Positions 2,420-20,355 of a stretch of DNA of 64,000 bases are shown in pieces. The position numbers were made by a program, and so were the translations under genes. This DNA is from Gemmobacter sp. (GTDB taxonomy: Bacteria; Pseudomonadota; Alphaproteobacteria; Rhodobacterales; Rhodobacteraceae), in contig JBAYSY010000005.1 of assembly GCA_041675885.1 (NCBI GenBank), forward strand, positions 7,652 through 71,651. The letters are read 5' to 3'. The notes under the pieces were generated by a model. The model made no database searches and had not been told where the DNA came from. It was given only the letters and a program-made list of their open reading frames with translations. The stretch's first letter is position 1. Every line of letters starts with the position of its first letter.

Positions 2420-2514
2420 CGACATTGAAGCCGCTGGCAACAGCGACAAGCCTGGTCGGCCTACACCCCGGCCAGAACCTGATCAACGGTCTGCATTGTA
2501 AGGGGGACCAGAAG

Positions 2515-3312: not shown

Positions 3313-3333
3313 ACCGCACAGGACTGACGGCAA

Positions 3334-3364
3334 AGGCCCGCGATCCCGGATCGCGGGCCTTTTG
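3334..3364. terminator. Bidirectional terminator hairpin between convergent genes
   Basis: AGGCCCGCGATCC-CG-GATCGCGGGCCT is a perfect long stem, followed by TTTTG. Confidence 0.75.
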
Positions 3365-3412
3365 CGTTGCGGGATGCGGTGCCCCGAAGGCCGGAGCCCG
3401 GCAGGGCGCCGG

Positions 3413-3829
3413 TCAGTTCCCCTCGCCATCCCCGGCGGTGTCGATCAGGATCAGGTTCTGGTCCTCATGCACCCAGATCGCGCGGGCCGCGGTGACATCC
3501 GCCTCGGTCAGGTCGTCGAAGGCATCCGGCACCGGATCGGGAAGCCTTGTCGGGTCGTCATAGACGAAGGCGGCGCAAAGGGCGTGATCCCCGCAGGCCG
3601 CGCGCCCGGCCTCGGCCCAGACATGCATGTCCGCGCCCGCCTCGCACAGCACCAGCGCCAACTGGCCGCCGCCATGCTCACCGCGACAGATTTCCGCCGC
3701 GCGCCCGGCGGCGTCCGCGCCCTCGGCCAGCGCGGGCGGCGCCCAGAGCCCGAGCGCAAGCACGGCGGCCAGCGCGCGGGCGGGGCGGAGGGTCAGGCGC
3801 GGACGGTCCTTATGCGATCCGTATGTCAT
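3413..3829 (-). CDS. Small secreted Cys-containing hypothetical protein
   Basis: An ATG at 3829 gives MTYGSHKDRPRLTLRPARALAAVLALGLWAPPALAEG (signal peptide). The mature part has 4 Cys. I recognise no family. Confidence 0.5.
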   Translation of the reverse strand: MTYGSHKDRPRLTLRPARALAAVLALGLWAPPALAEGADAAGRAAEICRGEHGGGQLALVLCEAGADMHVWAEAGRAACGDHALCAAFVYDDPTRLPDPVPDAFDDLTEADVTAARAIWVHEDQNLILIDTAGDGEGN

Positions 3830-4074
3830 TTCGAAAAGACCTTTTGAAACCTGCCCGACCTTATGCCCGGGCGGGTGACGGCGCAACCATCCTGCGCCCA
3901 CCCCGCCCACGGCGCCGGGGATTTCCGGCGTCTGGCGGGCACCGAACCGGAACGCCCATTCCCCCTTGCCCGGAACAGCCGCGCAGGCGGCAGGGGCTGC
4001 GGTTCTCCGCTGCCCTCTGTTTCGCCTGTGCGCCTCGATCCGGTCTTCTGACCGGCCCGCCAGAACCCGCCCCG

Positions 4075-7000
4075 CTAGAACTGGGTGGTGATGTTCAGGA
4101 ACGCCCCCGTGCGCGGCAGCCGGACCCGGCGCATGTCGTCATCGACCTGACCCCAGGCATAGCCCGCGCCGATACGCAGGTTGTTGCCCATCAGCCGGTA
4201 AAGCCCGGTCACCGCCCCCAGTTCGGTCGTCTCGGCGCGCGGATAGCGCAGCGCCCGGACCTCGGCCATCAGATCCCAGTTGTGGACCACGTGGTAATCC
4301 ACCCGCAGGATGCCCAGATGCGCCTCGGACCGGGTAGAGGCGGAACCGCTTGCCCGGTCGGAAAGTTCGCGCCAGCGGTAGCCGTATTTCGCCCCCAGCG
4401 TCCATTGCGGGTTCAACTGATAGCTGATCGCCGCGTTCAGGATATGGCTGCGCTGGCGCGGCCCGTTGATATGGCCGTCGATATTGACCTGATCGGCCCC
4501 CGGCATGTCGTAGAGGAAGGTATAGCTGACAAGGCCGTTGATCCGGTCGTTGCTTTCGGGCCGCCAGGCATAGCCGACACGGGCCTCGACATAGCGGCCA
4601 TCGCGGAACGACGACTGGTCCGAATTCGACACCACCGCGTCGATCGCCGAGACGAAACGCCAGTCGGCCGAGGTCTTCTGTTCGTAGAAGCCCGAGACCA
4701 GCCAGGTGTTGCGGTCGAGATCGCGCGCCGGGTTGTCCGAGGACTCGCGCCGCCATTCGCCGCGCAGCCCGGCGGCGACGATATCGGCGTCGGTATAGCG
4801 GACCCCGAAGGACAGCCCGCGCCGTTCCATCGTGGTGTCGTCCTGCAACACGGTGCGGCCGAACTGCAACCCGCCGTCGAAGCGCCAGCGGGCGTCGGGC
4901 GTATAGGTCACCCCGTAGCCCGAGGTCAGCGTCGGCCTTGTGCCGAAGGCGCTGTAGGTGTTTTCGGCGGTGTAGTTCCAGCGGTCGTTCACCCGCGACG
5001 AAGCCCCCAGCACCACCCGGCCCCGGTCGCGCCCGGCGAAATCGGCACTGTCGAAGCGCCGCTGCGGGTCGAGTTCGTAGCCCAGCGTATAGCGGCTGGC
5101 CTCGTCGCGCTGCCAGCCGAGTTCGGCCCGCGCCGCCCAGCCGAGATTGCCGGTCGAGACCTCGCCGGTCATGTCGATCCGGTCGGTCAGCAGCGCCCGC
5201 GCCCCGAAGCCCACCCGGTTGTTCGCCTGCCGCGTGGCATCACGGGTGACGGTCGCCTGACCGAAGGCCCAGATCGCCAGATCCTCGTCGGGCGACCATG
5301 TAAGCCGCACCGCCGCATCGGTCCGTGCCCCGAAATCGGCCCGGGGTCCGGGGGCGGCAAGGGCGGAACGCTCATCGCGCTGCACCTCGCCCTCGACCGT
5401 CCAGACCGGGGTCAGCGCATGGGCAAAGCCCAGCCGCACCCGCCGGTCCTTGCGGCCGTCGGCATCGCTGAAATGCCGCCCGCCGAAGGTCAGCGCGGTG
5501 CGCGCCGTCAGCGCCACCTCGCCGTCGAGGCCCCATGCGGTCTGATCGACCCGGATCTCGTCCGAGGGCGAACTGAAGCCGCCGTCCTTGCGGGTGTAGA
5601 ACCCTTCGACCCTTCCATCGAGGCCGAGCATCGCCAGATCGGTGCGGCCGCGCAGGCTCCAGGCGTCGGCATGCTGACCGGGCAGGCCGAAACTGGGGTT
5701 GCCGGGCAGGATCTCCATCCCCGCGTTGTCCGAGAAGGACGAGCCGAATCCCGGCCCCTCGGACCGGGCGTATTCCACGAGCAATTCGCGGGTTTCGCCC
5801 TGCCGCAGCAGGATATCGGCGCCAAGCAGGGTATTGTCGGCGATGCCGGTGGTCTCGCGCAGGCCCGCCACGCCGAAGCGCAGGTGGTCGTTCGCCCAGC
5901 CTTCGGCCCGCAGGCCGATGGTATGACCGTCGATATCGCCGGTCGTCGGGATATATTCGTATTGCGCGACCAGCCGCACCTCCTGGTCGCCCAGCGGGTT
6001 GGACGTGACCAGCCCGCCCGACGAGGCGTGCGACGACAGCGGTGCGTTCAGGATCACCACACCCTGGATATGGTCGATGCGGTAATCCACCCCCTCGCTC
6101 AGCCGCCGGGCCGACAGGATCGCCCCGGTGGTGGTGTCGCGGACCTCGACCATGATGGTTTCGGTATCGGCAAGCAGATCCTGCCGCGACAGGAAATAGG
6201 CGCTGCCGCCGGTGGCGCTGAACACGTCGCGCTGCATCAGGCTGTCGGCATTGGCGGCGAAGCCGGTGATACGCACCCGCGGCTCGCCCTGCCCGGTCAC
6301 GGCGAGCGAGCGGTATTCCCCCGACAGGCCGTAAAGCGCGCGGTCGCTGCGCACCAGCGCCGCCGCATCGCCCGCGGGCTTGAAGTCGCCCCAGGTCAGG
6401 TGGCTGCCGTCGCGTTCGACCCGCAGGTAGAACTTGCCCGAGGTGGGGGCCAGTTCGGTCATCTGCGAATCGTCGCCATAGGTGTTGAAGATGTCGCGCG
6501 GCTCCAGCTGGCGCAGGGTCTGGTCGGGGTGTTTGCGGCCGAAGTTGCGGAACATGTCGCGCAGTTCTTCTTCCCGCGTGTCCATCGAGGCGGTGACCCG
6601 CACCCCGTTCGCCAGCGTGCCCTGCGCGAAGCCGGCGATGCGGCCCAGTTTCCAGGTCTCGCCCAGCACGTTGTCGCGGCCGATGGTCAGGTCGGCGATG
6701 CCGGTGCGGAACCACTCCGACCGGGCGATCTCGACCGGGCGTTCGGTCTCCTGCCCGTCAACACCGATCCGCACCCCATGGACACCAGGCGGCAGGATGC
6801 GCTGGATCACGAAACTGCCCGAAGGGTCCACCGGCGCGCGTTCGCCCATCACCGTGACCGCGCCCGCCGCACGGGCATGGCCGGTAACGGTCACCGCCCC
6901 GCCCCGCACCGGGATGCCGCGCCGGGCGGTCATGTCCTCGCCCTCGGCGGCGGCGATGACCGGGCCGGGGCGCTCGGCCTCGGGCAGGCGGGTGGCGCTG

Positions 7001-7686
7001 CGCACCAGCCTTGTGGAACGGGTTTCGTCCCGGCGGCCCGCGGTGTCCCAGGCGCGCAGGATATAGTCGTAATCGCCATCGTCGCGCGCGTCGCGGGCGG
7101 CGGGCATGGTCCATTCCGCCGTGCCGTTGGGGGCGATCGGCACCAGTGCCACGGTCTGGCCGCGCCGGTCGCGGATCACCACCTCGGCCCGGTCGATCCA
7201 GGCCGGATAGTTCGAGGTCGCGCGGAAGGTCACCTTTTCGCCCGCGACAAAGCTCTGGCGCAGGTCGGCGGTGGCGACCGCAAGCCGTGGCCGCGCCCCC
7301 AGCCCGTCGTAGCTCAGTTGCAGGCCCATGGCCTCCAGCAGCCGGTCGATATCGCGGATCCGGTCCGGCCGGGCGGGGGCGCCCGCGATGGTGCGGCGCG
7401 GCCCCTCGGCGCCTTCGGCCCCGTCGATCGAGATCGAAAAGCCCAGATCGCCCAGATCGGCGGTCACCGGCGCAGCGGCGATGTTGGGCGGTGCCGGGCG
7501 GGCGACCACGGTGCCCTCGTTGGCGTGGCGGCAGTTCTCGGGCAGGCGGCCGTCCACCAGAACGCAGCCGTCCGCCTGCGCCCCGGCGGGCTGCCCCGCC
7601 CCCAGCGCCAGCGCCGCGGCGCCCGCCATCAGCACCATCCGCATCCCGCGGGCCTGCATCGAGCCGGACATACCAAGCGCCCCCAT
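4075..7686 (-). CDS. Very large (about 1,200 aa) outer-membrane beta-barrel protein with an N-terminal soluble region; uncharacterised family
   Basis: Signal-like N-terminus MRMVLMAGAAALALGAGQPAGAQA. Long runs of alternating amphipathic beta-strand sequence. The C-terminal ...GAFLNITTQF ends in Phe, the classic OMP signature. The start overlaps the stop of the upstream giant (GTGATG). Confidence 0.7.
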   Translation of the reverse strand: MGALGMSGSMQARGMRMVLMAGAAALALGAGQPAGAQADGCVLVDGRLPENCRHANEGTVVARPAPPNIAAAPVTADLGDLGFSISIDGAEGAEGPRRTIAGAPARPDRIRDIDRLLEAMGLQLSYDGLGARPRLAVATADLRQSFVAGEKVTFRATSNYPAWIDRAEVVIRDRRGQTVALVPIAPNGTAEWTMPAARDARDDGDYDYILRAWDTAGRRDETRSTRLVRSATRLPEAERPGPVIAAAEGEDMTARRGIPVRGGAVTVTGHARAAGAVTVMGERAPVDPSGSFVIQRILPPGVHGVRIGVDGQETERPVEIARSEWFRTGIADLTIGRDNVLGETWKLGRIAGFAQGTLANGVRVTASMDTREEELRDMFRNFGRKHPDQTLRQLEPRDIFNTYGDDSQMTELAPTSGKFYLRVERDGSHLTWGDFKPAGDAAALVRSDRALYGLSGEYRSLAVTGQGEPRVRITGFAANADSLMQRDVFSATGGSAYFLSRQDLLADTETIMVEVRDTTTGAILSARRLSEGVDYRIDHIQGVVILNAPLSSHASSGGLVTSNPLGDQEVRLVAQYEYIPTTGDIDGHTIGLRAEGWANDHLRFGVAGLRETTGIADNTLLGADILLRQGETRELLVEYARSEGPGFGSSFSDNAGMEILPGNPSFGLPGQHADAWSLRGRTDLAMLGLDGRVEGFYTRKDGGFSSPSDEIRVDQTAWGLDGEVALTARTALTFGGRHFSDADGRKDRRVRLGFAHALTPVWTVEGEVQRDERSALAAPGPRADFGARTDAAVRLTWSPDEDLAIWAFGQATVTRDATRQANNRVGFGARALLTDRIDMTGEVSTGNLGWAARAELGWQRDEASRYTLGYELDPQRRFDSADFAGRDRGRVVLGASSRVNDRWNYTAENTYSAFGTRPTLTSGYGVTYTPDARWRFDGGLQFGRTVLQDDTTMERRGLSFGVRYTDADIVAAGLRGEWRRESSDNPARDLDRNTWLVSGFYEQKTSADWRFVSAIDAVVSNSDQSSFRDGRYVEARVGYAWRPESNDRINGLVSYTFLYDMPGADQVNIDGHINGPRQRSHILNAAISYQLNPQWTLGAKYGYRWRELSDRASGSASTRSEAHLGILRVDYHVVHNWDLMAEVRALRYPRAETTELGAVTGLYRLMGNNLRIGAGYAWGQVDDDMRRVRLPRTGAFLNITTQF

Positions 7687-10600
7687 CACCGAACCCCCCG
7701 CTCGATCACCGTTTCCACATTCAGCTGATAGCGCCCGTTCGCGGGCCAGAGGCGGCGCAGCTCGCGCTCCACCAGCCGGAGGTGGCGCCGGGCCTCGTCC
7801 ACGGGCTCGGCCCCCTGCCGCCAGGTGATGCGCAGCATGGCGGGCGTGTCGCGCAGTTCGCTGACCATCCGCCGCAGCCCCTCGGCCAGTTCCGGGCGCA
7901 TCCGCCCTTCGGCGAAGGCGTTGGCGGCAAGGTCGATCCGCACCAGCCGCGACAGGGTGGCGCCGAAGTCGAGCCGCGTCACCATCCCCTGCGTGACCCG
8001 CACCACGCGCGGGTTTTCCGTCGTCAGCCGGAAGCCCGCGGGCAGCGTGCGTTCATCGAGCCGCAGCATGAAGTTGCCGCCAATGTTGCGCGGCATCGCC
8101 GCACAGGGCACGCTGAAGCGGCCATGCTCGTCGGTCAGGATGGCGATGCCGTTCGGCGTGACCAGCCGGACGTTCGGCAGGCCCTTCTCGCTACCGCTCC
8201 GGGTCATGTGGCCGTCCTGGTTGCGGTCGTCGAACACCCGGCCAAGCACGGTCGAGCACTGGAACACCCCGTCGGCCTCGACCCGCACGATGGCGGTGGC
8301 CTCGGGGCTGACCGGCGCGCCGGTCTGGCGCGAGTAGAGCCGCGCGCGGTTGGTATGCGCGCCCGGCTGCACCGCCGAAGTCACCAGCGTCTCCAGCGTG
8401 ACCTCGACCGAGGTGCCGGGGGCGACGGAAACCTCGTCGAACGCCAGATTGCGGCTGTTGCCGGTGGGTTCGGTCGCCACACCACCGATCCGCGCGGTGC
8501 CGGAGCGGTAGACGAAGCCCTGCGGCAGCACATCCACCAGCCGCGCCGTCAGCGGCAACCCGCCCGCGGCATTGGTGACGGTGATGGTCCATGGCACCAC
8601 GTCGCCGACCACGGCGCGGCTGACGCCCGCGATTTTCTCAAGCGCGATGCCGCCGGTGCTGACCGGGGTCGAGACCGATGAGAAGTTGCTGTCCACCACC
8701 ACCTCGGAGCCCGCCCTGCCCTGCGCGATCGCTTCCTGCGAGATCGTGCCGGTGGCGACATCGCCCGCCGTCACGATATGCGAGGCGCCGGTGCAGACCA
8801 GCGTGGCCGTCTCGCCCACCGCCAGCGTGACCGGCTGGCAGGAAAGCCCGGGCAACGGCAGGCTCAGGCGGCTTCCGTCGATGTTCACCTCGGTCAGCGG
8901 CAGGGTGCCGGTGTTCTCGACGGTGAAGCGGAACACCACCTCGTCGCCCGGCCCGGTCACGCCGTCGCCGTCATGGTCGATGATCCGGTCGATGCCGATG
9001 GTCAGCGCCAGTTCCGGATGGCCGATATCCACCACGGTGATGTCGTGATTGCCGGACCCGGTGCCCGAAACCGCCTCGGCCGTCGCGGGGGTGCCGTCGC
9101 CGGTCGTGTAATGGCCCTGCGCCAGCGCCTGGTTCTCGACCCGGGTGCGGGCGATGTCCTCGGCGGTGATCGCATAGCTGGCGGTGAAGCTGTCGCTGTC
9201 CGCCGCGCCCGGCGCAAGCGACGGGATCGGCCCGCCGCTCATCACCAGCCCCGGCAGGTCGTCGATGACGGTCACATCGGTCAGCGTCACGTTGCCGGTG
9301 TTGGTCACCGTGAAGGCATAGGTGATGATGTCGCCCGGCTCCGGCGGGATCTGCACGCCGGAATCGTCGGCGGTCTTGACCAGTGCGATTCCCGGCGTCT
9401 GGTCGATCCCGACCACGGTCGGCCCGTCCACGCCCTGATCGGTGAAGGAATCGGCGGTGACGGTTCCCGGATTGTCCGGATCACCATGGCTGGCCGAGAC
9501 CAGCGCGCGATTCTCGACCTGCCCGGCGTCCAGATCCTCCTGCGTCAGGCTGTAGGTGGCACTGAAGCTGTCGGTGTCGGTCTCGCCCGGCGCAAGTTCC
9601 GGGATCGGGGCACCCGAAAGCTGGATCCCCGGCAGGGCGTCGGTCAGTTCGACGTTGAACAGCGTCACCGTGCCGCTGTTGGTGATGGCGAATGCATAGC
9701 GGATTTCGTCACCCACCTGCGGCGGGCCTTGCAGCCCGGTGGCATCGGCCGCCTTGACCAGTTCGATGGTCGCCGCCTGCGGCAGATCAACCCGCGTCGG
9801 GTCGTCGTCGTCCACCGTCGCGCCCGAGATATCGGTTACTTCGACCGGAACCCCGCCCGCATCGGTATATTGTCCGGTGACCGTGGCGGTATTCTCGACA
9901 TGCCCGCGGTCGATATCCGCCTGGGTAATGACGTAGCTCGCGGTGAAGGTGTCGCTGTCGGTCTCGCCGGGGTCGAGCACGTCGAGCGGCCCGCCCGCAA
10001 GCACGATGCCCGGCAGGTCGTCGGCAATGACCAGATCGGTCAGCGGCACGTTGCCGGTATTGGTGACCGCAAAGGCGTAGCTGATGGTGTCGCCCACCGC
10101 GAGATCGCCCGCAGGCACCGAGGTGCTGGCGGTCTTGACCAGCGCCACGGCCGGGCTGGACGCCACCGGCACCTCGACCCCGGATTCGTCCCCGACCTGT
10201 CGCGGCTCACCCGTTGCCAGGTCGGTGCCCCAGGTGCCGGTGACACTGGCAAGGTTCTCGACCCGCCCGGCGGTGATGTCGTCCTGGGTGATCGCATAGC
10301 GCGCGGTGAAGGTGTCGTCGTCCGTCACCCCCGGTGCAAGCGCCGGGATCGGCCCGCCGTCCAGCACCAGCCCCGGCAGATCGTCGGCAAGGGTCACATC
10401 CGTCAGCGTCACGTTGCCGGTGTTGGTCACGGCGAAGCTGTAGATGATTTCCTGCCCGATCACCGCCGGATCGGTCAGCGCCAAGGCATTGGCGTCCTTC
10501 ACCAGTTCGATGCCCGGAAGCTGGGTCAGCGGCGTCACGGTCGGGTCGTCGTCCTCCTCGGTCTCGCCCGACAGGTCGGTGACCGGCACCGGCGATCCGC

Positions 10601-13600
10601 CGCCATCGTCGAACACGGCGTCGCCGGTGGCCTGGTTCACCACCTCGCCCGCATCAAGATCATCCTGCGTGACCGGATAGGTCGCGGTGAAATCCGCGCT
10701 CTCGCCGGGCAGGAGCGTGCCTGCGTCAAAGCTCGACTCCGACAGGCCCGGCAGCGGATCGGTCACGGTCACATCGGTCAGCGTCACGTTGCCGGTGTTC
10801 CGCACCGTGAAGCTGTAGGTGATCAGGCCGCCGACCTCGGACGGGCTGCCCTCGGCCGACTTGACCACGGCAAGCGCCGGGGTCCGGCCGAGACCGACCA
10901 CGGTCTCGTCGTCGTTCGGCACGTCGGGGTCGTTGCCCGACAGTTCCTCGACCGGGGTCAAGCCGCCCTCGCCGTCGTCCCACGTGCTGCGGGCGGTGGC
11001 CTGGTTCACCACCTGACCACGGTTGATATCATCCTGCGTGACCACATATTCCACCACGAACGTCTCGTCCGCACCGGGGGCGAGTTCGGCCACGGCGAAA
11101 CTGCCCGGCGTGATGCCGTCCAGCGGGTCGGTAATCGCGATATCGTAGAGGGTCACGTTGCCGGTATTGGTCAGCACCAGCGTATAGGTGATGCTGTCGC
11201 CCGCCTCGGCATCGTCGATCTGCGCCGGGTCGGCGGTCTTGACCAGTTGCATCGCCGGCACCCGGGCAAGCGGCACCACGGTCGGCCCCTCGTCGCCGGT
11301 CTCGGTCTCGGACTCATCCGATACCTCCTGCGGCTCGCCGTCCTCGTCGGTATAGCCGCCGGTGACCGTGGCGCGGTTCTCGACATGGCCGCGTTCGATA
11401 TCGTCCTGCGTCAGCGTGTAGGCGGCGGTGAAGCTGGTGTCGTCCAGCGCGCCGGGCGCCAGTTCGTCGATACTGCCCGAGATCGCCACACCGGGGATGA
11501 AATCGTCGGTCAGAACCAGATCGGTCAGGGTGACGTTGCCGGTATTCCGCACCTCGAACCTGTAGCGCAGCACCTCGCCCGCGACCGGGGGCGACGACAG
11601 GTCCGTCGCCGTGGTGTCGAGCGCCTTGACCAGCGAGATCCCGGGCGCGATCACCAGATCGGTCACCTCGGTATCCTCGGCCCGCACCTCCTGCGGATCA
11701 TCCTCGCTGTCGCGCCATATGGCCACGACCTCGGCGGTGTTCGTCACCCCGCCCTCGTTGATTTCCGCCTGGGTCAGCGCATGGGTGCCGGCGAAGTCCC
11801 CGCCGCGTTCCATGTCCGGCAGCAGGTCGAAAGCCTGCGTCTCGTCCGTGGTGAACACCAGCATCCCGTCGATCATGGTGAAGCTTTCCAGCACCACGTT
11901 GCCGGTGTTGCGGATGGTGAAGTGATAGACCACCTCTTCGCCAGCCAGCGGCGGGTTCGACAGGCCGGTGATACCGGCGGTCTTGACCAGTTCCACGCCG
12001 GGCACCTGCGGCACCGGCAGCACGGTATCGCCGGGCGTGGTCGGATCGCCGGGCTCCGGGCTCGACTCCACCGGGGTCAGCGGGCCCGCGGGATCGCCGG
12101 GGGTGCCGCCGAAATCGCCGGTCAGACCGGCGCGGTTGCGCACCTCACCCGCCTGGATGTCGTCCTGCGTGAGTTCGTAACTCGCGGTCAGCACCTCGAT
12201 CCCGCCGGGGGCAAGCTCGGCAATCGAGAAGCTGGCCGGGTCGATCCCCGGCAGCGGGTCCGCGACCTCCAGATCGCGCAGCGTGACGTTGCCGGTGTTG
12301 GTGACGGTGAAGGTGAACTCGATCACCTCGCCCGGCAGTGGCATTTCCGGCAGGCTGTCGGCCACGGTCTTGACCAGCGTGACCGCCGGATTCCGGCCAA
12401 GGCCGACCACGGTCGGGTCGTCGTTCGGCACATCGGGGTCGTTGCCCGACGGCACGTCGAGCGGGTCGCCGGTCGGCGTATCGGCGCGGGCGGTGGCCTG
12501 GTTCACCACCTCGCCGTTATCGATATCCTCCTGCGTGACGGTATAGGTCGCGACCCACGTTTCGGCCGCACCGGGGGCAAGCGTGGCGAGGGTGTAACCG
12601 GCCGGGTCGAGGGCCAGCTTCGGGTCGCTCAGCACCAGGTCGGTCAGGGTGACGTTGCCGGTGTTCTCGACCACGAAGGTATAGGTGATGGTGTCGCCCA
12701 CCTCGGCCGGGTCGATCATGTCCTGATCGGCGGTCTTGAGCAGGGTCATCCCCGGCACCCGGTCGAGCGGCACCGTCACGTCGGAGGTGGCGGGATCGGC
12801 GGTCAGCACCTCGGTCGGGTCGTCCGGGTTGGTCCAGTCGCCGGTAACCTCGGCGGTGTTGTCCCGCTGGCCGTTGTCGATATCCTCCTGCGTGAGGGTA
12901 TAGCTGCCGGTAAAGCTGGTATTGTCGGTCTGGTCCACCTCAAGCGGGGTATCGCGGCTGCCGGTGATCGTCACACCGGGCAGCAGGTCGGTCAGCGCAA
13001 GGTTCGACAACGGCACGTTGCCGGTATTGGTGATCGCGAACGTATAGGTGATCTCGTCCCCGGCCTGCGGCGGCGTCTGCAATCCGGTGGTGACCGCCTC
13101 CTTGACCAGATCGAGCGCCGGATTGCGCAGAAGCGGCGCCACGGTCGGCTCGTCATTGTCGAAATCGCTGCCGGAATCGTCCGTCACCGTGGGCGTGGTG
13201 GTCGAGCCGGTGTCGGCGGTGACCGTGGCATGGTTCTCCACTTCGCCCGCTTCGATATCGGCCTGCGTCAGCAGGTAATGCCCGGTCAGGCTGTATTCGG
13301 TGGTCCCGCCGCTACCCGGCGCATCGAGCGTGAGGCCCGAGATATCCTCGTCGAAGACGAAACCCGGCAGGATGTCGGTCAGCACGAGGTTGGTCAGCGG
13401 CAGGTTGCCGGTGTTGCGGATGGTGAAGCCGTAGTCGATCCGGTCGCCCGGCATCAGCGGGCCCGAGGTATCGGTCGTCAGCGTCTTGACCAGCGCGATT
13501 GCGGGGTGATGCGGCAGCGGTGTCACCGTGTCGCCCGGCGTCGGGTCGGAAGGATCGGGGCCCGAGGGAACCGGATCGCTCGGCGTGCCCGAGGGGCTTT

Positions 13601-16484
13601 CGCCCTCGATCGCCGCCTGGTTGACGACCTCTCCCGCCACGATGTCGGCGACGGTCAGGACATAGGTGATCCACAGGCCGTCCGTATCCACGCTACCGAC
13701 CGGCAGGCTGACGATGCCGCCATGCACCACCGCGCCGGGCAGCGGATCGGTCAGCACGATGTTTTCCAGCGTGACGTTGCCGATGTTCTCGACCCGGATG
13801 TTCCAGCGGATCTCGTCGCCGGGGAAGGCCGGTTCCGGCAGGCTCGCGGGGTCCAGCTCCTTGTGCAGCAGGAAGTCGGGGTTCTGGTGCAGCGGGGTTT
13901 CCACCGATTGTTCGTCCGAGGAAATCGGCGTGTTGCCCGGACCGAAGACGGCTTCGGCATGGGCGAGGTTCTCGACCCGGCCCGCGTCGATATCGTCCTG
14001 CGTCACCGGATAGGTGGCCTGGAAGGTGTGGTCAGCGCCGGGTTCCAGGGTGCCGATGGTAAAGGCTCCCGCCGGCGTCATCGTGCCGCCCAGCACATCC
14101 TCCACCACCACTTCGCGCAGCGTGGTGTTGCCGGTGTTGGTGACGGTGAACCCGTAGGTGATGGTCTCGTCCACCTCGGTGGCCGGGTCGGAGATCGTGT
14201 TCGCGATCTCGGTCTTGACCAGCTCCAGCTCCGGCTCGGACAGGGTGTCGATCCGCACCGTGTCGGTATCGCTGACCGTATCGGCGGGGTCGCCGCCCCA
14301 GAGGCCGGTCGTCGTCGCGGTGTTTTCGACAAGGCCGCTGTCGATATCGTCCTGCGTCAGCGTGTAGGCGGCGTTCAGGGTGATCGAGTCGCCGGGCGCC
14401 AGTTCCGGGTGCGGCAGTGACGGATTCCCGGCATCCCATACAAAGCCGGAGAGGCTGTCCATCGGATCGTCGAGCGTCACATCGACCAGCACCGAATTGC
14501 CGGTATTGGTGATCTCGAAGGTGTAGGTGACCACATCCCCCGGCGCGGCCGCGCCGCCGCCCGCGGGCGTCAGCTCGTAGGTCTTGGCCAGATCGATCCC
14601 GTCGGTGAAGGCGGGCGTGACCGTGGCGGAGTCGCTGTCATCCACGTCCTCGCCGGAATACCGGCCCTCTGCCTCGACCGTGGCGGTGTTGTCATGGGTC
14701 AGCGACGCCGCGCGCGGAACTTCGGGCCAGACGCGCAACTGAAGCCTCACCGTCGTGTCGGCACCGGCCGCAAGCGTGCCACCGCTGATGATCCGGCCCG
14801 GCGCGAAGGGGTTGGCCTCGAACCCCGGGTCGAGGGTCAGCCCGCCCGCATTCACCGGGACGATACTGAAACTGCCGGGCGCATCGCTGGTGTCGTAGGT
14901 GCCGAAGGACGCCTCCAGCGGGTCGTCGATCACGATATTCGTCACCGGCTCCAGGCTCGGGTTGGTCACCAGCAGTTCGTAGGTCACCATATAGGAGCCG
15001 TTGGTCTGCACCACATGTTCGACGCTTTTGTCCAGCCCGATGCGCGGCTCGTGGTGTTTCGAGAAGTCGAGGTTGCCGATCTCGTCGGGCCCGGTCACGG
15101 CGATCGAGCCGATGGTGTGCTCATCAACCGCAGTGCCGTAGCCGCCGGTGGGCAGCGCCGCGGCAGGGGTCAGGAAGTCCTCGCTCGGCGAGGCATAGCT
15201 GACCTGATACGCGCCCTCGGGCAGCAGCGGGAAGCTGTAGTTGCCGGTGCCGTCCGTGGTGGTGGTCATCGTGATCGGCGTGCCGTCCTCGGCCGTTCCG
15301 GTCAGTTGCACGGTCACGCCCGCGACGCCGGTATCCTCGGCATCCCAGGCATCATTACGGTCGAAGTCGCGGAAAATCCCGCCCGACAGCGTGGCGGTTT
15401 GCACGGTGACCGTATCGGTGCTGGTCATGGTGCCGGGGTCGTCCGGGAAAGATTCCGTGGTGACACTCGCGGTGTTCGACACCACCTCGTTATCGGCATC
15501 AACCGAGACCACCTTGACCGGGATCGACACGCTCACCACGTCGCCCGGCGCCATCTCACCGATGAAGCACGACAGTTCGCGGCCGGAAATATCGCAACTG
15601 CCGATGTCGCCGGTCGTCACCGGGGCGCCGGTCACCTCGACATTCGCGGGCAGGATATCGGTCAGTTCCACCCCTTCGGCGGTGCCCATCTGGTTCTCGA
15701 CCGTAATCTCCCAGTTGAAACCCTCGCGCAGCATCAGCGGTGTCGGCGCGTCGTTGGTCTTGCTCACGACCAGATCGACCCGCTCACGCACGGTGGTGGA
15801 TTCGGTCACGCTGTTGTTGCCGGCGAACTCGTGGCCCGCTGTGGTCTCGCGCGACTTGACGACGGCGCTGTTGATCCAGGTGCCGCGCTCAAGCGCCTTC
15901 ATCTCGACCCCGATCACCCGCGTCTCGTTCGCGGGCATGTAGCCGAGCGTGCAGGTCAGCGTGCCGCCCGCCGTGTCCGCCACGGTGCCTGCGGTCTCAC
16001 AGACCATCCCCGCCCTGTCGGTGATCGAAACAAAGCTCAGCCCATCGGTCGGGAAGGTATCGAGCAGTTCGACCTCAAAGGCGGCCGAGGGGCCGCGGTT
16101 GGTCACGGTGATGCGATAGGCGGTGTTCTGGCCGCTTTCCACCGGGTCGGTGTCGTCGGTCTTGTTGATGACGAGATCGAGCACCGGCTCCCGCACGACA
16201 AGCAGCAGGTCGTCGGTATTGTCGGCCTGATCCTCGGCGCGTTCCTCGGTCGTGGTCGAGACCGCGGCGGTGTTGAGCAGCTCCTGCCCGGCCTGAAGGT
16301 CGGTCGGGATCACCCGGATGGTGACCGTCTGCTGCGAGCCGTTGGCGATGCGGCCGAGGTTGCATTCCACCGTATCGCCGGAGGCGGTGATGGCACCCGG
16401 GGCAGGCATGGCGGAACAACTGCCGCTGCTGGACGTGGCGGAGACAAAGCGCACGCCTGCGGGCAGGGTGTCGATCACCGTCAC
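7686..16484 (-). CDS. Giant DUF11/TIGR01451 conserved-repeat surface protein, C-terminal 2,932+ codons. Homology continues upstream of the nominal GTG to 16637 (see findings)
   Basis: About 19 tandem modules of roughly 115-120 aa carry the T(V/I)TNTGNVTLTD...LPG...L.PG....F.A.Y..TQ.DID.G.V.N.A motif. The C-terminus has an SdrD-B/Cna-B-like segment (GRVFDDRNQDGHMTRSGSEKGLPNVRLVTPNG...TDEHGRFSV). Confidence 0.9.
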   Translation of the reverse strand: MTVIDTLPAGVRFVSATSSSGSCSAMPAPGAITASGDTVECNLGRIANGSQQTVTIRVIPTDLQAGQELLNTAAVSTTTEERAEDQADNTDDLLLVVREPVLDLVINKTDDTDPVESGQNTAYRITVTNRGPSAAFEVELLDTFPTDGLSFVSITDRAGMVCETAGTVADTAGGTLTCTLGYMPANETRVIGVEMKALERGTWINSAVVKSRETTAGHEFAGNNSVTESTTVRERVDLVVSKTNDAPTPLMLREGFNWEITVENQMGTAEGVELTDILPANVEVTGAPVTTGDIGSCDISGRELSCFIGEMAPGDVVSVSIPVKVVSVDADNEVVSNTASVTTESFPDDPGTMTSTDTVTVQTATLSGGIFRDFDRNDAWDAEDTGVAGVTVQLTGTAEDGTPITMTTTTDGTGNYSFPLLPEGAYQVSYASPSEDFLTPAAALPTGGYGTAVDEHTIGSIAVTGPDEIGNLDFSKHHEPRIGLDKSVEHVVQTNGSYMVTYELLVTNPSLEPVTNIVIDDPLEASFGTYDTSDAPGSFSIVPVNAGGLTLDPGFEANPFAPGRIISGGTLAAGADTTVRLQLRVWPEVPRAASLTHDNTATVEAEGRYSGEDVDDSDSATVTPAFTDGIDLAKTYELTPAGGGAAAPGDVVTYTFEITNTGNSVLVDVTLDDPMDSLSGFVWDAGNPSLPHPELAPGDSITLNAAYTLTQDDIDSGLVENTATTTGLWGGDPADTVSDTDTVRIDTLSEPELELVKTEIANTISDPATEVDETITYGFTVTNTGNTTLREVVVEDVLGGTMTPAGAFTIGTLEPGADHTFQATYPVTQDDIDAGRVENLAHAEAVFGPGNTPISSDEQSVETPLHQNPDFLLHKELDPASLPEPAFPGDEIRWNIRVENIGNVTLENIVLTDPLPGAVVHGGIVSLPVGSVDTDGLWITYVLTVADIVAGEVVNQAAIEGESPSGTPSDPVPSGPDPSDPTPGDTVTPLPHHPAIALVKTLTTDTSGPLMPGDRIDYGFTIRNTGNLPLTNLVLTDILPGFVFDEDISGLTLDAPGSGGTTEYSLTGHYLLTQADIEAGEVENHATVTADTGSTTTPTVTDDSGSDFDNDEPTVAPLLRNPALDLVKEAVTTGLQTPPQAGDEITYTFAITNTGNVPLSNLALTDLLPGVTITGSRDTPLEVDQTDNTSFTGSYTLTQEDIDNGQRDNTAEVTGDWTNPDDPTEVLTADPATSDVTVPLDRVPGMTLLKTADQDMIDPAEVGDTITYTFVVENTGNVTLTDLVLSDPKLALDPAGYTLATLAPGAAETWVATYTVTQEDIDNGEVVNQATARADTPTGDPLDVPSGNDPDVPNDDPTVVGLGRNPAVTLVKTVADSLPEMPLPGEVIEFTFTVTNTGNVTLRDLEVADPLPGIDPASFSIAELAPGGIEVLTASYELTQDDIQAGEVRNRAGLTGDFGGTPGDPAGPLTPVESSPEPGDPTTPGDTVLPVPQVPGVELVKTAGITGLSNPPLAGEEVVYHFTIRNTGNVVLESFTMIDGMLVFTTDETQAFDLLPDMERGGDFAGTHALTQAEINEGGVTNTAEVVAIWRDSEDDPQEVRAEDTEVTDLVIAPGISLVKALDTTATDLSSPPVAGEVLRYRFEVRNTGNVTLTDLVLTDDFIPGVAISGSIDELAPGALDDTSFTAAYTLTQDDIERGHVENRATVTGGYTDEDGEPQEVSDESETETGDEGPTVVPLARVPAMQLVKTADPAQIDDAEAGDSITYTLVLTNTGNVTLYDIAITDPLDGITPGSFAVAELAPGADETFVVEYVVTQDDINRGQVVNQATARSTWDDGEGGLTPVEELSGNDPDVPNDDETVVGLGRTPALAVVKSAEGSPSEVGGLITYSFTVRNTGNVTLTDVTVTDPLPGLSESSFDAGTLLPGESADFTATYPVTQDDLDAGEVVNQATGDAVFDDGGGSPVPVTDLSGETEEDDDPTVTPLTQLPGIELVKDANALALTDPAVIGQEIIYSFAVTNTGNVTLTDVTLADDLPGLVLDGGPIPALAPGVTDDDTFTARYAITQDDITAGRVENLASVTGTWGTDLATGEPRQVGDESGVEVPVASSPAVALVKTASTSVPAGDLAVGDTISYAFAVTNTGNVPLTDLVIADDLPGIVLAGGPLDVLDPGETDSDTFTASYVITQADIDRGHVENTATVTGQYTDAGGVPVEVTDISGATVDDDDPTRVDLPQAATIELVKAADATGLQGPPQVGDEIRYAFAITNSGTVTLFNVELTDALPGIQLSGAPIPELAPGETDTDSFSATYSLTQEDLDAGQVENRALVSASHGDPDNPGTVTADSFTDQGVDGPTVVGIDQTPGIALVKTADDSGVQIPPEPGDIITYAFTVTNTGNVTLTDVTVIDDLPGLVMSGGPIPSLAPGAADSDSFTASYAITAEDIARTRVENQALAQGHYTTGDGTPATAEAVSGTGSGNHDITVVDIGHPELALTIGIDRIIDHDGDGVTGPGDEVVFRFTVENTGTLPLTEVNIDGSRLSLPLPGLSCQPVTLAVGETATLVCTGASHIVTAGDVATGTISQEAIAQGRAGSEVVVDSNFSSVSTPVSTGGIALEKIAGVSRAVVGDVVPWTITVTNAAGGLPLTARLVDVLPQGFVYRSGTARIGGVATEPTGNSRNLAFDEVSVAPGTSVEVTLETLVTSAVQPGAHTNRARLYSRQTGAPVSPEATAIVRVEADGVFQCSTVLGRVFDDRNQDGHMTRSGSEKGLPNVRLVTPNGIAILTDEHGRFSVPCAAMPRNIGGNFMLRLDERTLPAGFRLTTENPRVVRVTQGMVTRLDFGATLSRLVRIDLAANAFAEGRMRPELAEGLRRMVSELRDTPAMLRITWRQGAEPVDEARRHLRLVERELRRLWPANGRYQLNVETVIERGVR

Positions 16485-16637
16485 GTCGTCGGCGCCGCTG
16501 CGGCCGTCGCGCCTTACCCCGGCGGCAAGCGTGTAGATCAGTTCCTGCCCGGCGACGGGTTCGCTGTGCGGGCTGGTCTTGGTGATGAAGACGTCGGTGA
16601 CCGGCTCGACCGCGTAGGGGACCGAAGCGGCATTGTT

Positions 16638-18668
16638 CTACACGTCCGGATCGGGGGTCGTCGTCGAGAAGGCTTCGGCGGTGTTGGTCCGGTCGGCCGC
16701 ATCGCCACCCGCCAGAACCTCGACGGTGATCTCGGGGCAATCCGTGGTGCAGACCGGCAGGTTCGCAGCATCGCAGCGCAGGTTGGCGGCGAAATCACCA
16801 TCGGGGTTCACGGTGCAGACGAAGCCAGCGGGGGCAGAGACACTGACGGCAGCGGGGTCCACGATGGGCGCAAGCCGGTCGGTCAGCACCACGTTCAACG
16901 CCTCGGCAGGCCCCACGTTCTGCAAGCCGATGGTGAAGATCACGGGCTCGCCCGATTCGAAGCTGGCGCCATTGACCGATTTGCTTACGCTGACATCGGC
17001 CCAGTTTTCGCCCGCCGCGCTGGTCACGTTGGTCGTGGTGGTGTTGTTGCCAAGGTCTTCGTCGTCGATGTTGTAGGCGGGCGAGCCGACCGTCATCCCG
17101 TTCGAGATCGCGCCTTCTTCCGTCACCAGCGCGGTCAGCGTGATGTTGCCGGTGGCACCGCCGGGCGCAAGCGGGCTTGCTTCCGTGTAAAGCGACGGGG
17201 CCTCGCAGACGACATCCATCGGGCCGACCAGCGGGGACGCCTCGCTCGCGATCGGGCAGGTCCAGCCCGAGGGTGCGTTGATGCTGGTCACCGACAGCCC
17301 GGCGGGCAGGTGGTCGGTCATGGTCATCGGGCCGTAAAAACCCGCCGTGCCCGCGTTGCTTGCCCGGATGGTGAAATCGTAGCTGTTGCCCACCGTCACC
17401 AGCCCGCGCGCCGGGCCGGACTTGTTCGCGACCAGATCGACCGTGGGTTCGACGATCGACACCGGCGTGTCGCTGGCGGTGTTGTTGTTCGGGTTGACGT
17501 CGTTCGCGGCCGTAATCGCCGCCTCGTTCCGGACACCCGCGCCGGTGGCCACGGCCTCGGCCACGATCTGGATCGGCGTGGCGTAGCCGCCGGGCGAGCC
17601 GCCTTCGGGATAGGTGCAGGTGACGGTGCCGCCGATGGCCTCGCAGCTCCAGCCGCCCGGCTCGGTCACGCTGACGAACTCGTAGTTCGCGGGCAGCGTG
17701 TCGGTGATGGTGGCCGCCCCCGGCGGGCTGCCCACGTAACCCGGGGTCAGCGTGAAGGTGACCTGATCGCCCCGCAGGATCTGCGCGCCCGAGGGGCTGC
17801 GGCTTTTCGACAGCACATAGTCGGTGCCGGGCAGAATCTCGATGTCCTGCACCGCGCTGTCGTTGCTGTTGTCCGGGTCTTCGGGGTTTGAGCCGCTCAG
17901 CGCCGCGGCGATGACCACATTCGACGCATCCGCCGTGGTGACCTGCGTCGAGAAGTCGAGCGTGACGGAATCGCCCACCGGGATCTCGTCGGTGACCGTG
18001 CAGGTGACATTGCCGCCCGCGACCTCGCAGATACCGGGCAGCGTGACGAAAGAGGGCGAAAGGCCGGTCGGCAGCGGGAAGGTCAGCACCGTGCCCTGCG
18101 ACGGATAAGGGCCGTTGTTGGTGACGGTGGCGCTGAAGCTGGCGAAATCGCCGGACTGGACCGGGCTGACCCCGGCCAGCGTGAGTTCGAGATCGGTGCC
18201 CAGATAGACGGTGGTGGATTCCGAGTTCGACGGCCCGTCGTCCCCCATCTGCCCGGCGACGGTGAAGGTCTGGCTGGCCCCCATCGGCCGCACCAGGATC
18301 GCACCCTCGATCCCCTGGGTCGCCGCCAGCGCCGGCACGTCGCAGGTGACGGTCAGCGGCCCGTCGAGCGGCGGCTCCCCCGCCGGATCGGGCAGACAGT
18401 TCAGAAGACCGCCGGTGAATCCCTCGTATCGCGAGGCGCCGGGGATGGTGAAACTTACCGTCGTGGCCGGGGCGCCGGAACTGCTGCTCGCATTGCTGAT
18501 GCGCGTGGTATAAGGCACGAGGCCCCCGGCCGCGATCGGGTCGTAATCGGCGCCGCCAATGCCGGTGTCGCGCAGATCGAAGGTCCAGCTCTGGGCATGA
18601 ACGGGTGCCGCGGCGAACATGGCAAGGCAGAACAACGAGACTTTAAGCCCCCAAGCCGACTGGCGCAT
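16638..18668 (-). CDS. N-terminal segment (676 aa) of the same DUF11-repeat surface protein, with a Sec signal peptide; ends at an in-frame TAG
   Basis: An ATG at 18668 gives MRQSAWGLKVSLFCLAMFAAAPVHAQS, with GAAGGG upstream. About 5-6 DUF11-type modules follow. It is in the same reading frame as 7686..16484. Confidence 0.85.
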   Translation of the reverse strand: MRQSAWGLKVSLFCLAMFAAAPVHAQSWTFDLRDTGIGGADYDPIAAGGLVPYTTRISNASSSSGAPATTVSFTIPGASRYEGFTGGLLNCLPDPAGEPPLDGPLTVTCDVPALAATQGIEGAILVRPMGASQTFTVAGQMGDDGPSNSESTTVYLGTDLELTLAGVSPVQSGDFASFSATVTNNGPYPSQGTVLTFPLPTGLSPSFVTLPGICEVAGGNVTCTVTDEIPVGDSVTLDFSTQVTTADASNVVIAAALSGSNPEDPDNSNDSAVQDIEILPGTDYVLSKSRSPSGAQILRGDQVTFTLTPGYVGSPPGAATITDTLPANYEFVSVTEPGGWSCEAIGGTVTCTYPEGGSPGGYATPIQIVAEAVATGAGVRNEAAITAANDVNPNNNTASDTPVSIVEPTVDLVANKSGPARGLVTVGNSYDFTIRASNAGTAGFYGPMTMTDHLPAGLSVTSINAPSGWTCPIASEASPLVGPMDVVCEAPSLYTEASPLAPGGATGNITLTALVTEEGAISNGMTVGSPAYNIDDEDLGNNTTTTNVTSAAGENWADVSVSKSVNGASFESGEPVIFTIGLQNVGPAEALNVVLTDRLAPIVDPAAVSVSAPAGFVCTVNPDGDFAANLRCDAANLPVCTTDCPEITVEVLAGGDAADRTNTAEAFSTTTPDPDV

Positions 18669-18906: not shown

Positions 18907-20355
<1,449 letters not shown>

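What the first reader, a model, noticed from the sequence alone, without database searches (positions are those of the whole stretch)
4075..18668. Sec-signal DUF11 giant translationally coupled to a 1,200-aa beta-barrel: a candidate dedicated export or anchoring pair
The giant repeat protein has an ordinary Sec signal peptide and no T1SS C-terminal signal, autotransporter barrel or TPS domain that I can see.

Its stop overlaps the start region of a very large protein (GTGATG at 7684-7689). That protein has a signal sequence, an N-terminal soluble region of about 450 aa (including a CarboxypepD_reg-like stretch) and an amphipathic-strand region of about 750 aa ending in ...NITTQF.

A barrel this size, co-translated with a 380-kDa passenger-like protein, suggests a two-gene surface-display module. 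The barrel could act as a dedicated translocator or anchor, analogous in logic to two-partner secretion or inverse autotransporters. I recognise neither family signature.

Nothing else in the cluster supplies an export route. The functional link is inference.
Basis: partly seen in the sequence, partly recalled or inferred. Interest (0 to 1): 0.65.

Follow-up and report, generated by a model that had tools for sequence, protein, structure and literature searches.

The report
Giant adhesin paired with 40-strand barrel
A gene for a huge fibre-like surface protein overlaps by four bases the gene for an exceptionally large outer-membrane barrel; the pair is conserved in many alphaproteobacterial species and fused into one protein in others, which points to an undescribed way of exporting or anchoring adhesins, although here the fibre gene carries a premature stop.

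Summary
Both genes are real and lie on the minus strand. The giant's TGA overlaps the barrel's GTG/ATG start.

The functional link is strongly supported.
- In 74 of 75 related loci with upstream DNA, a gene ending in the giant's conserved ~280-aa tail sits directly upstream of the barrel. Forty-one of these have a 4-nt ATGA/GTGA overlap.
- No third gene is conserved.
- In other lineages passenger, tail and barrel form one polypeptide of 1,700 to 6,900 aa. Some have OmpA domains between tail and barrel.

The barrel matches no Pfam or NCBIfam family above threshold and no PDB sequence. Fold matches are only generic. An AlphaFold model and my coevolution analysis indicate one closed barrel of about 40 strands, two N-terminal Ig-like domains and a conserved inserted domain.

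Best explanation: a split member of an undescribed autotransporter-like family. The barrel would be the conduit and anchor for a CLIPPER (DUF11) fibrillar adhesin held by its C-terminal tail. Export itself is inferred, not shown. In this genome the system may be inactive.

The parts
16641..18668 (-). N-terminal part of the giant adhesin frame (676 codons): probable Sec signal peptide (about 25 aa, MRQSAWGLKVSLFCLAMFAAAPVHA, 18594-18668), then four DUF11/CLIPPER domains
   Evidence: Translation. Pfam DUF11 E = 1.5e-43 with 4 stretches. The signal peptide was read by eye.
16638..16640 (-). In-frame TAG that interrupts the giant
   Evidence: Homologues carry T, G or S here and align on both sides. 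The next possible restart, GTG 16484, would lack a signal peptide.
7686..16637 (-). Remainder of the giant frame (2983 codons plus TGA): 16 DUF7507/CLIPPER_2, 10 DUF11/CLIPPER and one SdrD_B domain
7689..8540 (-). Conserved C-terminal tail of the giant (284 aa). It has a CLIPPER-like Ig domain (8262-8540), a highly conserved SdrD_B-like Ig domain with two conserved Cys (7950-8261), and a terminal beta-alpha-beta-alpha-beta domain (7689-7949).
   Evidence: Alignment A2. AlphaFold model with pLDDT 92.6. Found upstream of the barrel in 74 of 75 loci and just N-terminal of the barrel in the fused proteins.
7684..7689 (-). Overlapping stop and start (GTGATG): giant TGA 7688-7686, barrel GTG 7689-7687 or ATG 7686-7684
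   Evidence: The same 4-nt ATGA/GTGA overlap is present in 41 of 74 related loci.
4075..7689 (-). Gene for the giant outer-membrane barrel protein (1203/1204 aa, C-terminal ...NITTQF)
   Evidence: Model with pLDDT 82.4 and pTM 0.78.
6718..7686 (-). Barrel protein signal peptide (7573-7686) and N-terminal soluble region (mature residues 1-285: a Cys-bracketed N-terminal segment and two small Ig-like beta domains), inferred to be periplasmic
   Evidence: DSSP of the model. Only weak Ig-like Pfam hits. Relatives carry OmpA domains N-terminal of this region.
6250..6717 (-). Barrel wall strands 1-7 (mature residues 286-441)
   Evidence: Model DSSP. Coevolution ladders; strand 1 pairs with the last strand at Z 4.8.
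5926..6249 (-). Inserted conserved domain (mature residues 442-549) carrying the family's best-conserved motifs (TGGSAYFLS, VAQYEYxP). It is looped out between wall strands 7 and 8, on the extracellular-side parity.
   Evidence: Strand 433-441 pairs with 550-559 at Z 10.4. Conservation, and the motifs were used as scan patterns. No Pfam match.
4078..5925 (-). Barrel wall strands 8-40 (mature residues 550-1165), ending in the C-terminal aromatic residue
   Evidence: Model DSSP. Consecutive strands are mutual best coevolving partners, Z 3-12.

Best explanation
The two genes form a split version of an undescribed, autotransporter-like surface-display system.

Shown:
- The pair is conserved.
- The two genes are translationally coupled.
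- The two parts are fused into one protein in other lineages.
- The barrel belongs to no described family.
- It is predicted to be one closed barrel of about 40 strands.

Inferred mechanism:
- The giant is a Sec-exported fibrillar adhesin stalk of about 31 CLIPPER/CLIPPER_2 Ig-like domains.
- Its conserved C-terminal tail (CLIPPER-like Ig, SdrD_B-like Ig, small alpha/beta domain) is the coupling module for the downstream outer-membrane protein.
- The partner's N-terminal domains sit in the periplasm. The stalk threads through the very wide barrel lumen to the surface, and the tail stays bound at or inside the barrel as plug and anchor.
- The barrel therefore acts as both conduit and anchor.

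In this particular genome the TAG in the giant probably inactivates the system, unless it is a sequencing error.
For: - Synteny: 74 of 75 related loci with more than 1 kb of upstream DNA carry a tail-bearing gene directly upstream on the same strand. The loci span Paracoccaceae, the roseobacter group and many Rhizobiales genera.
- Coupling: 41 of 74 have a 4-nt ATGA/GTGA overlap, 44 overlap in some way, and 24 more have gaps of 0-20 nt.
- No third partner: an all-vs-all ORF clustering of the 80 loci finds only these two genes conserved.
- The tail is the constant part. Passengers vary from 1,130 to over 3,300 aa and in repeat type, including CshA repeats.
- Fusions: among the best 150 family representatives, 15 proteins of 2,134-6,889 aa carry the barrel at their C-terminus. 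A tail homologue (36-42% identity, E 1e-35 to 1e-61) lies N-terminal of the barrel part, directly adjacent in most and about 550 aa upstream in three, and most start with what look like signal peptides (read by eye).
- One fusion is a continuous 14-kb ORF on a 348-kb contig.
- Phyllobacterium isolates have a minimal 1,702-aa fused form with no separate giant.
- Topology: OmpA (PF00691) domains lie N-terminal of the barrel in a distant split pair. They lie between tail and barrel in the three fused forms tested (P0262, P0282, P0313), and P0272 shows the same motifs by eye. This places the giant's C-terminus and the barrel's N-terminus in the periplasm.
- Barrel size and closure: the model has pLDDT 82.4 and pTM 0.78. 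Coevolution shows the first core strand pairing with the last (mutual best, Z 4.8) and 40 wall strands. Loop-length parity is consistent from both ends.
- The most conserved parts are the barrel's soluble and inserted domains and the tail's SdrD_B-like domain. That is what one expects of an interface.
- CLIPPER domains are documented stalk domains of surface fibrillar adhesins (PMC12617251).
Against: - There is no direct evidence that the giant reaches the surface or contacts the barrel.
- The strand count rests on the DSSP string and coevolution, not on coordinates.
- A ~40-strand pore would need tight plugging, and no energy source is evident.
- One locus (L056, a MAG contig) has the barrel without the giant.
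- The genomic context of most of the about 214 stand-alone representatives was not examined.
- The terminal alpha/beta domain could not be assigned: hhalign against OmpA gives probability 3.8% and Foldseek gives no match.
- In this window the giant is interrupted.
Confidence: 0.6

Rival explanations
1. Anchor only. The barrel protein docks the giant's tail at the outer membrane or peptidoglycan but is not the export conduit. The giant would cross the outer membrane by another machine, or be held at the periplasmic face.
For: OmpA domains in relatives point to a load-bearing wall anchor. A published CLIPPER adhesin from Acinetobacter is described as having an OmpA-like anchoring domain. No energy source is encoded in the pair.
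Against: No other export component is conserved near the pair in 80 loci. A simple dock would not need a ~40-strand barrel. The fused forms have the passenger-then-barrel order of autotransporters.
Confidence: 0.15
2. Envelope tether or scaffold. The giant stays under or in the outer membrane, and the complex links the outer membrane to the cell wall, functionally like Deinococcus SlpA or OmpM-type connectors, rather than displaying an adhesin.
For: Foldseek lists D. radiodurans SlpA (30-strand barrel) among the generic hits. Relatives carry OmpA domains.
Against: TM-scores to SlpA are only 0.20-0.25. There is no SLH or coiled coil. CLIPPER/SdrD_B/CshA repeat stalks are hallmarks of extracellular adhesins. 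Passenger length and composition vary greatly between close relatives, which is typical of surface proteins. The giant is disrupted in this and several other genomes, which argues against an essential envelope role.
Confidence: 0.1
3. Unrelated neighbours. The barrel is a nutrient channel or TonB-dependent-type transporter, as some database names say, and its position next to the giant has no functional meaning.
For: Source annotations read 'TonB-dependent receptor' and 'transporter'. There are weak sub-threshold hits to generic barrel families.
Against: No Plug or TonB_dep_Rec domain was found. Synteny holds in 74 of 75 loci, with conserved start/stop overlap and repeated gene fusions.
Confidence: 0.03
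4. Whatever the family does, the copy in this window is a recently inactivated pseudogene. The TAG ends translation after 676 codons, the remaining 9 kb is untranslated, and barrel expression is lost through polarity and loss of coupling.
For: In-frame TAG where homologues have sense codons. The nearest restart would lack a signal peptide. Fragmented giants recur in other genomes, for example Mesorhizobium amorphae with three pieces.
Against: It is a single-base difference in a repeat-rich gene and could be a sequencing or assembly error. Both flanks and the barrel ORF are otherwise intact, and the barrel is 100% identical in independent Logan contigs. No independent read of the TAG site was found.
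Confidence: 0.5

Closest known systems
Classical autotransporters (type Va secretion)
   Same: The fused relatives have the same order: signal peptide, long passenger, C-terminal outer-membrane barrel. The passenger's C-terminal end is held at the barrel. No ATPase or other accessory gene is conserved next to the pair.
   Different: The barrel has about 40 strands, not 12. There is no PF03797 match and no helical linker evident. Periplasmic Ig-like or OmpA domains lie between passenger and barrel. Here the system is split into two genes. The lumen is wide enough that, by barrel geometry, folded Ig domains could pass (inference).
Inverse autotransporters (intimin/invasin, type Ve)
   Same: Both combine a peptidoglycan-binding periplasmic domain (OmpA in relatives here), a barrel and a stalk of Ig-like repeats.
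   Different: The order is mirrored: the passenger is N-terminal here. The barrel is unrelated and more than three times larger. No IAT_beta or LysM domain is present.
Two-partner secretion (type Vb, TpsA/TpsB)
   Same: Two adjacent genes encode a large Sec-dependent exoprotein and a dedicated outer-membrane barrel.
   Different: There is no N-terminal TPS domain and no POTRA or Omp85 barrel. The recognition module is C-terminal. The gene order is cargo first, with overlapping stop and start.
LapA/LapE-type RTX adhesin retention
   Same: A giant repeat adhesin is kept on the cell by a folded terminal module lodged at its outer-membrane channel.
   Different: LapA is a T1SS substrate with no Sec signal. 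Its retention module is N-terminal, and the channel is a TolC-like trimer.
SprA/Sov translocon of the type IX secretion system
   Same: It is a very large single-chain barrel (36 strands, the largest solved according to the preprint read) that passes folded Sec-exported proteins.
   Different: There is no detectable homology: no SprA among the top Foldseek hits and no PDB sequence hit. The phylum differs, the cargo has no T9SS CTD signal, and no PorV or Plug partners are present.
Plug-and-barrel complexes (LptD-LptE, MtrB-MtrA) and chaperone-usher pores
   Same: A large barrel has its lumen occupied by a partner protein or by an inserted domain. These appear as generic fold hits.
   Different: TM-scores are at most 0.36. 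There is no usher Pfam match and no chaperone gene. The strand number is far larger.

Membership tests
Classical autotransporter (T5aSS) | C-terminal 12-strand Autotransporter barrel (PF03797) in the same polypeptide as the passenger | tested here: not met
   Neither protein has a PF03797 hit. The barrel is encoded separately and has about 40 strands.
Two-partner secretion (T5bSS) | N-terminal TPS domain in the cargo, and an Omp85-type TpsB with POTRA domains | tested here: not met
   No Haemagg_act/TPS, POTRA or ShlB hits in Pfam or NCBIfam.
Inverse autotransporter (T5eSS) | N-terminal IAT_beta 12-strand barrel followed by a C-terminal Ig-like passenger | tested here: not met
   No IAT_beta hit. 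The domain order is the reverse.
TonB-dependent receptor (name given by some sources) | N-terminal Plug domain (PF07715) and a 22-strand TonB_dep_Rec barrel (PF00593) | tested here: not met
   Neither family was hit. Foldseek to Cir and BtuB gives TM 0.15-0.29 with rmsd above 23 A.
Chaperone-usher pathway | Usher (PF00577, 24 strands with plug) plus a periplasmic chaperone gene and pilin subunits | tested here: not met
   No usher Pfam hit. No conserved third gene. TM to PapC and FimD is 0.14-0.36.
Type I secretion RTX adhesin | No Sec signal, C-terminal RTX repeats and secretion signal, ABC/MFP/TolC partners | tested here: not met
   The giant has an N-terminal signal-like sequence and no HemolysinCabind hit. 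The T1SS genes at 26.8-32 kb sit with their own RTX proteins.
Type IX secretion (SprA translocon and CTD cargo) | Por_Secre_tail/CTD on the cargo and a SprA/Sov homologue | tested here: not met
   No CTD family hit. No sequence hit to any PDB chain.
CLIPPER (DUF11) / CLIPPER_2 (DUF7507) fibrillar adhesin stalk | Tandem DUF11/DUF7507 Ig-like domains in a long signal-peptide-bearing protein | tested here: met
   DUF11 E = 3e-123 and 1.5e-43, DUF7507 E = 0 with 16 stretches. Family description in PMC12617251.
CLIPPER (DUF11) / CLIPPER_2 (DUF7507) fibrillar adhesin stalk | Intramolecular isopeptide bonds (Lys-Asp-Asn triad) in the domains | not tested
   The triad positions were not examined in this protein.
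OmpA-like C-terminal anchor (as proposed for the Acinetobacter CLIPPER adhesin) | OmpA family domain (PF00691) at the adhesin's C-terminus | tested here: not met
   The window tail has no PF00691 hit at E <= 1. hhalign of its terminal domain against OmpA domains of relatives gives probability 3.8%. True OmpA domains do occur in relatives, but next to the barrel.

The most novel reading that the evidence does not exclude
This family would be a new outer-membrane secretion and anchoring system, built on the largest single-chain beta-barrel yet seen (about 40 strands, against 36 for SprA). Its lumen is wide enough to pass already folded, isopeptide-locked Ig domains of giant adhesins, with the adhesin's own C-terminal tail acting as plug and anchor. 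It would have arisen independently of type V secretion, and it exists in fused and split forms across Pseudomonadota.
Probability: 0.4. Interest if true: 0.85.

Novelty: new variant of a known kind. Interest (0 to 1): 0.75.

Why it matters
- How Gram-negative bacteria move Sec-dependent giant Ig-repeat adhesins with no known secretion signal across the outer membrane is unresolved. The CLIPPER survey (PMC12617251) lists only T9SS tails and an OmpA-like domain as Gram-negative sorting or anchoring options.
- This finding gives that question a concrete, testable candidate: a large family (1,706 clusters at 50% identity with E <= 1e-30) of unannotated giant barrels, genetically coupled or fused to such adhesins.
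- The family sits in environmentally and agriculturally important alphaproteobacteria such as Paracoccus, roseobacters, Mesorhizobium and Phyllobacterium.
- If the ~40-strand count holds, it also extends the known size range of single-chain beta-barrels. A large strand-count survey of AlphaFold models dropped counts above 26 (27 to 40) as labelling errors or evolutionarily unlikely.

Tried and rejected
- Pfam and NCBIfam on the barrel gave only sub-threshold generic barrel hits. Pfam on its N-terminal and inserted domains from several members gave nothing significant.
- A profile search against PDB sequences gave 0 hits. Foldseek of the barrel model gave only generic large barrels with TM at most 0.39.
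- I suspected the tail's last ~85 aa were a degenerate OmpA-like domain. Pfam, Foldseek and hhalign (probability 3.8%) do not support this.
- A small ORF downstream of the barrel (about 3413-3910, called as 138 aa in Logan contigs) looked like a third operon gene. It has no homologue in any of the 80 loci.
- The search for any third conserved gene within +-10 kb found none.
- The T11SS cargo paper that mentions 'DUF11' turned out to concern DUF1194. A Brucella paper was likewise a false text match.
- Literature searches for DUF11/DUF7507 with outer-membrane barrels, large-barrel strand counts, SdrD_B and new autotransporter classes found nothing on this family.
- Attempts to find an independent copy of the TAG site failed: exact-protein look-up and a metagenome DNA scan.
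- Promoter and terminator consensus scans at both ends of the operon were uninformative.
- The first DCA run was dominated by gap artefacts and was redone on gap-free sequences.

Full report
**What is in the sequence**

The region holds two minus-strand reading frames in about 68% G+C DNA.

The downstream ORF (4075-7689) encodes 1203/1204 aa. It has a signal-like N-terminus (...AGAQA|DGC...) and ends in ...NITTQF.

The upstream frame runs from ATG 18668 to TGA 7688-7686. That TGA overlaps the downstream GTG (7689) by 4 nt and the ATG (7686) by 1 nt.

The upstream frame is not intact. A TAG at 16638-16640 divides it into 676 and 2983 codons. In more than a dozen homologues the aligned position is T, G or S, and similarity continues on both sides. 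This is a point nonsense change or a sequencing error. It is not a gene boundary.

Long shadow ORFs exist on the opposite strand. Homology shows that the minus-strand frames are the real genes.

**The two proteins**

The giant has about 31 Ig-like domains: 14 DUF11, 16 DUF7507 and one SdrD_B. It has no autotransporter, TPS or RTX domain. DUF11 and DUF7507 were recently renamed CLIPPER and CLIPPER_2. [quoted passage not shown]

The barrel protein reaches no curated threshold convincingly in Pfam or NCBIfam. Its hits are generic barrel families at about threshold or below:
- OMP_b-brl, 25.1 bits against a cutoff of 28.7.
- Phenol_MetA_deg, 22.8 bits against a cutoff of 22, covering only residues 993-1106.
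- A trace of MtrB/PioB.

A family profile hits nothing among PDB sequences.

**Neighbourhood**

The pair stands alone. Upstream and divergent lies a branched-chain 2-oxoacid dehydrogenase operon. Downstream and convergent lie a VWA/PEP-CTERM protein and an amidase. A T1SS cluster with its own RTX substrates lies at 26.8-38.4 kb. It is not plausibly the route for a Sec-signal protein that lacks RTX repeats.

**Is the pairing real?**

The barrel has full-length homologues (40-68% identity) in Paracoccus, Gemmobacter, Thioclava, Rhodobacter, Tabrizicola, Mesorhizobium, Pseudorhizobium and others. Their names are 'hypothetical', 'transporter' or 'TonB-dependent receptor'.

A scan of one genome per species found at least 573 relatives. 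I examined the best 80 loci.
- In 74 of the 75 loci with more than 1 kb of upstream DNA, a homologue of the giant's last ~380 aa lies directly upstream on the same strand.
- In 41 of these the stop and start overlap as ATGA, GTGA or TTGA. Forty-four overlap in some way, 24 have gaps of 0-20 nt and 6 have larger gaps.
- The single exception is a MAG contig (L056).
- Clustering all ORFs of the 80 loci shows that only these two genes are conserved. There is no chaperone, ATPase or other partner.

Upstream proteins range from about 1,130 to over 3,300 aa and differ in repeat content, including CshA repeats. All end with the same tail. The tail, not the repeats, is therefore what goes with the barrel. 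Several relatives also have fragmented giants, for example Mesorhizobium amorphae with 1224 + 1658 + 330 aa.

**Fusions**

An exhaustive profile search found 1,706 cluster representatives at E <= 1e-30.

Among the best 150, fifteen are proteins of 2,134-6,889 aa with the barrel at the C-terminus, and several more are shorter fusions.
- Their N-terminal parts are DUF11/SdrD_B repeat passengers.
- A homologue of the window's tail (36-42% identity, E down to 1e-61) sits N-terminal of the barrel part. In most it is directly adjacent; in three it lies about 550 aa upstream.
- Most begin with signal-like sequences, read by eye.

One fusion (4,674 aa) is a continuous ORF on a 348-kb contig. Phyllobacterium isolates carry a minimal 1,702-aa form with signal peptide, two CLIPPER-type domains, tail and barrel core, and no giant upstream. 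The closest non-fused relative of that form is a split Phyllobacterium locus. Fusion or fission has therefore happened within lineages. This Rosetta-stone evidence makes an accidental neighbourhood untenable.

**Topology**

In a distant split pair, the barrel protein starts with OmpA (PF00691) domains. Its upstream, 1-nt-overlapping neighbour is again a DUF11/DUF7507/SdrD_B protein.

In the three fused forms tested (P0262, P0282, P0313), OmpA domains lie between the tail and the barrel. P0272 shows the same motifs by eye. OmpA domains bind peptidoglycan, which is established knowledge.

The barrel's N-terminus and the passenger's C-terminus are therefore periplasmic. If the passenger is extracellular, the chain must pass through the barrel lumen. 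This is the logic of a classical autotransporter with extra periplasmic domains, or a mirror image of intimin.

**The barrel**

An AlphaFold2 model built on 60 homologues is confident (pLDDT 82.4, pTM 0.78). Foldseek finds only generic large barrels: TonB-dependent transporters, SlpA, LptD, MtrB and ushers. Query-normalised TM-scores are at most 0.21 and target-normalised at most 0.39, and the large-barrel alignments have rmsd above 20 A.

I therefore tested the topology with my own mean-field DCA on 328 homologues (Neff 244), summing couplings along antiparallel ladders between the model's DSSP strands.
- Consecutive strands are mutual best partners (Z 3-12), which validates the method.
- The first core strand (mature 286-300) and the C-terminal strand (1156-1164) are mutual best non-neighbours (Z 4.8). 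That means one closed barrel.
- Strand 433-441 pairs with 550-559 (Z 10.4). Residues ~442-549 are therefore a domain looped out of the wall.

This gives 7 + 33 = 40 wall strands, or 38-40 allowing for DSSP breaks.

Counting back from the C-terminal Phe, every loop of 14 aa or more falls on the extracellular parity. Strand 1 starts in the periplasm, which agrees with the OmpA evidence. The inserted domain sits on the extracellular-side parity and may fold into the lumen.

That inserted domain, the first N-terminal Ig-like domain and the start of the following barrel strand carry the family's best-conserved motifs. In the tail, the SdrD_B-like domain with its two conserved cysteines is nearly invariant. 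By standard barrel geometry, about 40 strands imply a Calpha diameter near 8 nm. That is wide enough for a folded Ig domain (inference).

The largest solved single-chain barrel is SprA with 36 strands. A 2026 survey of AlphaFold barrels dropped counts above 26 (27 to 40) as labelling errors or evolutionarily unlikely.

**The tail**

The model of the last 284 aa is very confident (pLDDT 92.6). It shows a CLIPPER-like Ig domain, an SdrD_B-like Ig domain and a terminal beta-alpha-beta-alpha-beta domain. Foldseek matches only the Ig domains, to SdrD, UafA and pilins. The terminal domain is not demonstrably OmpA-like.

**Interpretation**

Shown:
- A conserved, translationally coupled and sometimes fused adhesin-barrel module.
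- A barrel family outside all described families.
- A predicted single barrel of about 40 strands.
- Periplasmic placement of the junction between the two parts.

Inferred:
- The barrel is the conduit and anchor for the adhesin.
- The tail is lodged at or in the lumen.

The rivals are less well supported: anchor only, envelope tether, or unrelated transporter. They are listed with their tests in the rival-explanations section.

The copy in this window may be inactive because of the TAG.

I found no paper on this family in the searchable library. That library omits most subscription journals.

**Verdict**

The system works like an autotransporter split in two but is a member of none of the known families. 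The possibility that it is a mechanistically new translocon remains open.

Noticed in passing
window 26784-38371 (minus strand): A type I secretion cluster: HlyD-family MFP (26784-28106), a 686-aa cadherin-like RTX protein (28106-30163), an ABC exporter (30163-32040) and a 2108-aa protein combining an animal-haem-peroxidase domain with RTX repeats (32048-38371).
   Followed up: partly
window 2389-3312 (plus strand): A 307-aa protein with a VWA domain and a C-terminal PEP-CTERM sorting motif, convergent with the barrel gene. It is not conserved next to the pair in other genomes.
   Followed up: partly
window 3413-3910 (minus strand): A small ORF just downstream of the barrel, called as a 138-aa gene in Logan contigs, with a signal-like hydrophobic stretch. 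It has no Pfam hit and no homologue in the 80 related loci.
   Followed up: yes
L081 (Mesorhizobium amorphae) 1387-10993; also L064, L077, L025, L062: Giants of this family are often broken into several ORFs by stops or frameshifts in other genomes too. This could be pseudogenisation, on/off switching or assembly error in repeats. The frequency, roughly 8-10 of about 50 loci, is my estimate from comparing hit coordinates.
   Followed up: partly
L012 and L017 (Paracoccus sp. IB05); L023 16414-20859; L052 4827-5780: Some genomes carry two giant-barrel pairs, or a second tail-bearing giant on the opposite strand near the first.
   Followed up: no
L056 1533-8071: This is the one barrel without an upstream giant. 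It lies about 900 nt downstream of a LuxR-type response regulator and two small proteins with weak Secretin_N and YscD-like/Y4YQ hits, on a MAG contig.
   Followed up: partly
P0159 (metagenome fragment); L078 and L044 upstream ORFs: The same C-terminal tail is attached to CshA-type fibril repeats or to long stretches with no Pfam match. The tail therefore behaves as a portable sorting module.
   Followed up: partly
P0249 / L086 5264-10390: A branch of the barrel family (about 1,700 aa) carries up to three OmpA domains at its N-terminus. Other ~1,300-1,700-aa members have 200-600-aa N-terminal extensions with no tail hit, whose content I did not determine.
   Followed up: partly
window 18937-22625 (plus strand): A branched-chain 2-oxoacid dehydrogenase operon (E1 alpha, E1 beta, E2) is transcribed divergently from the giant. 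The shared intergenic region is about 270 nt.
   Followed up: no
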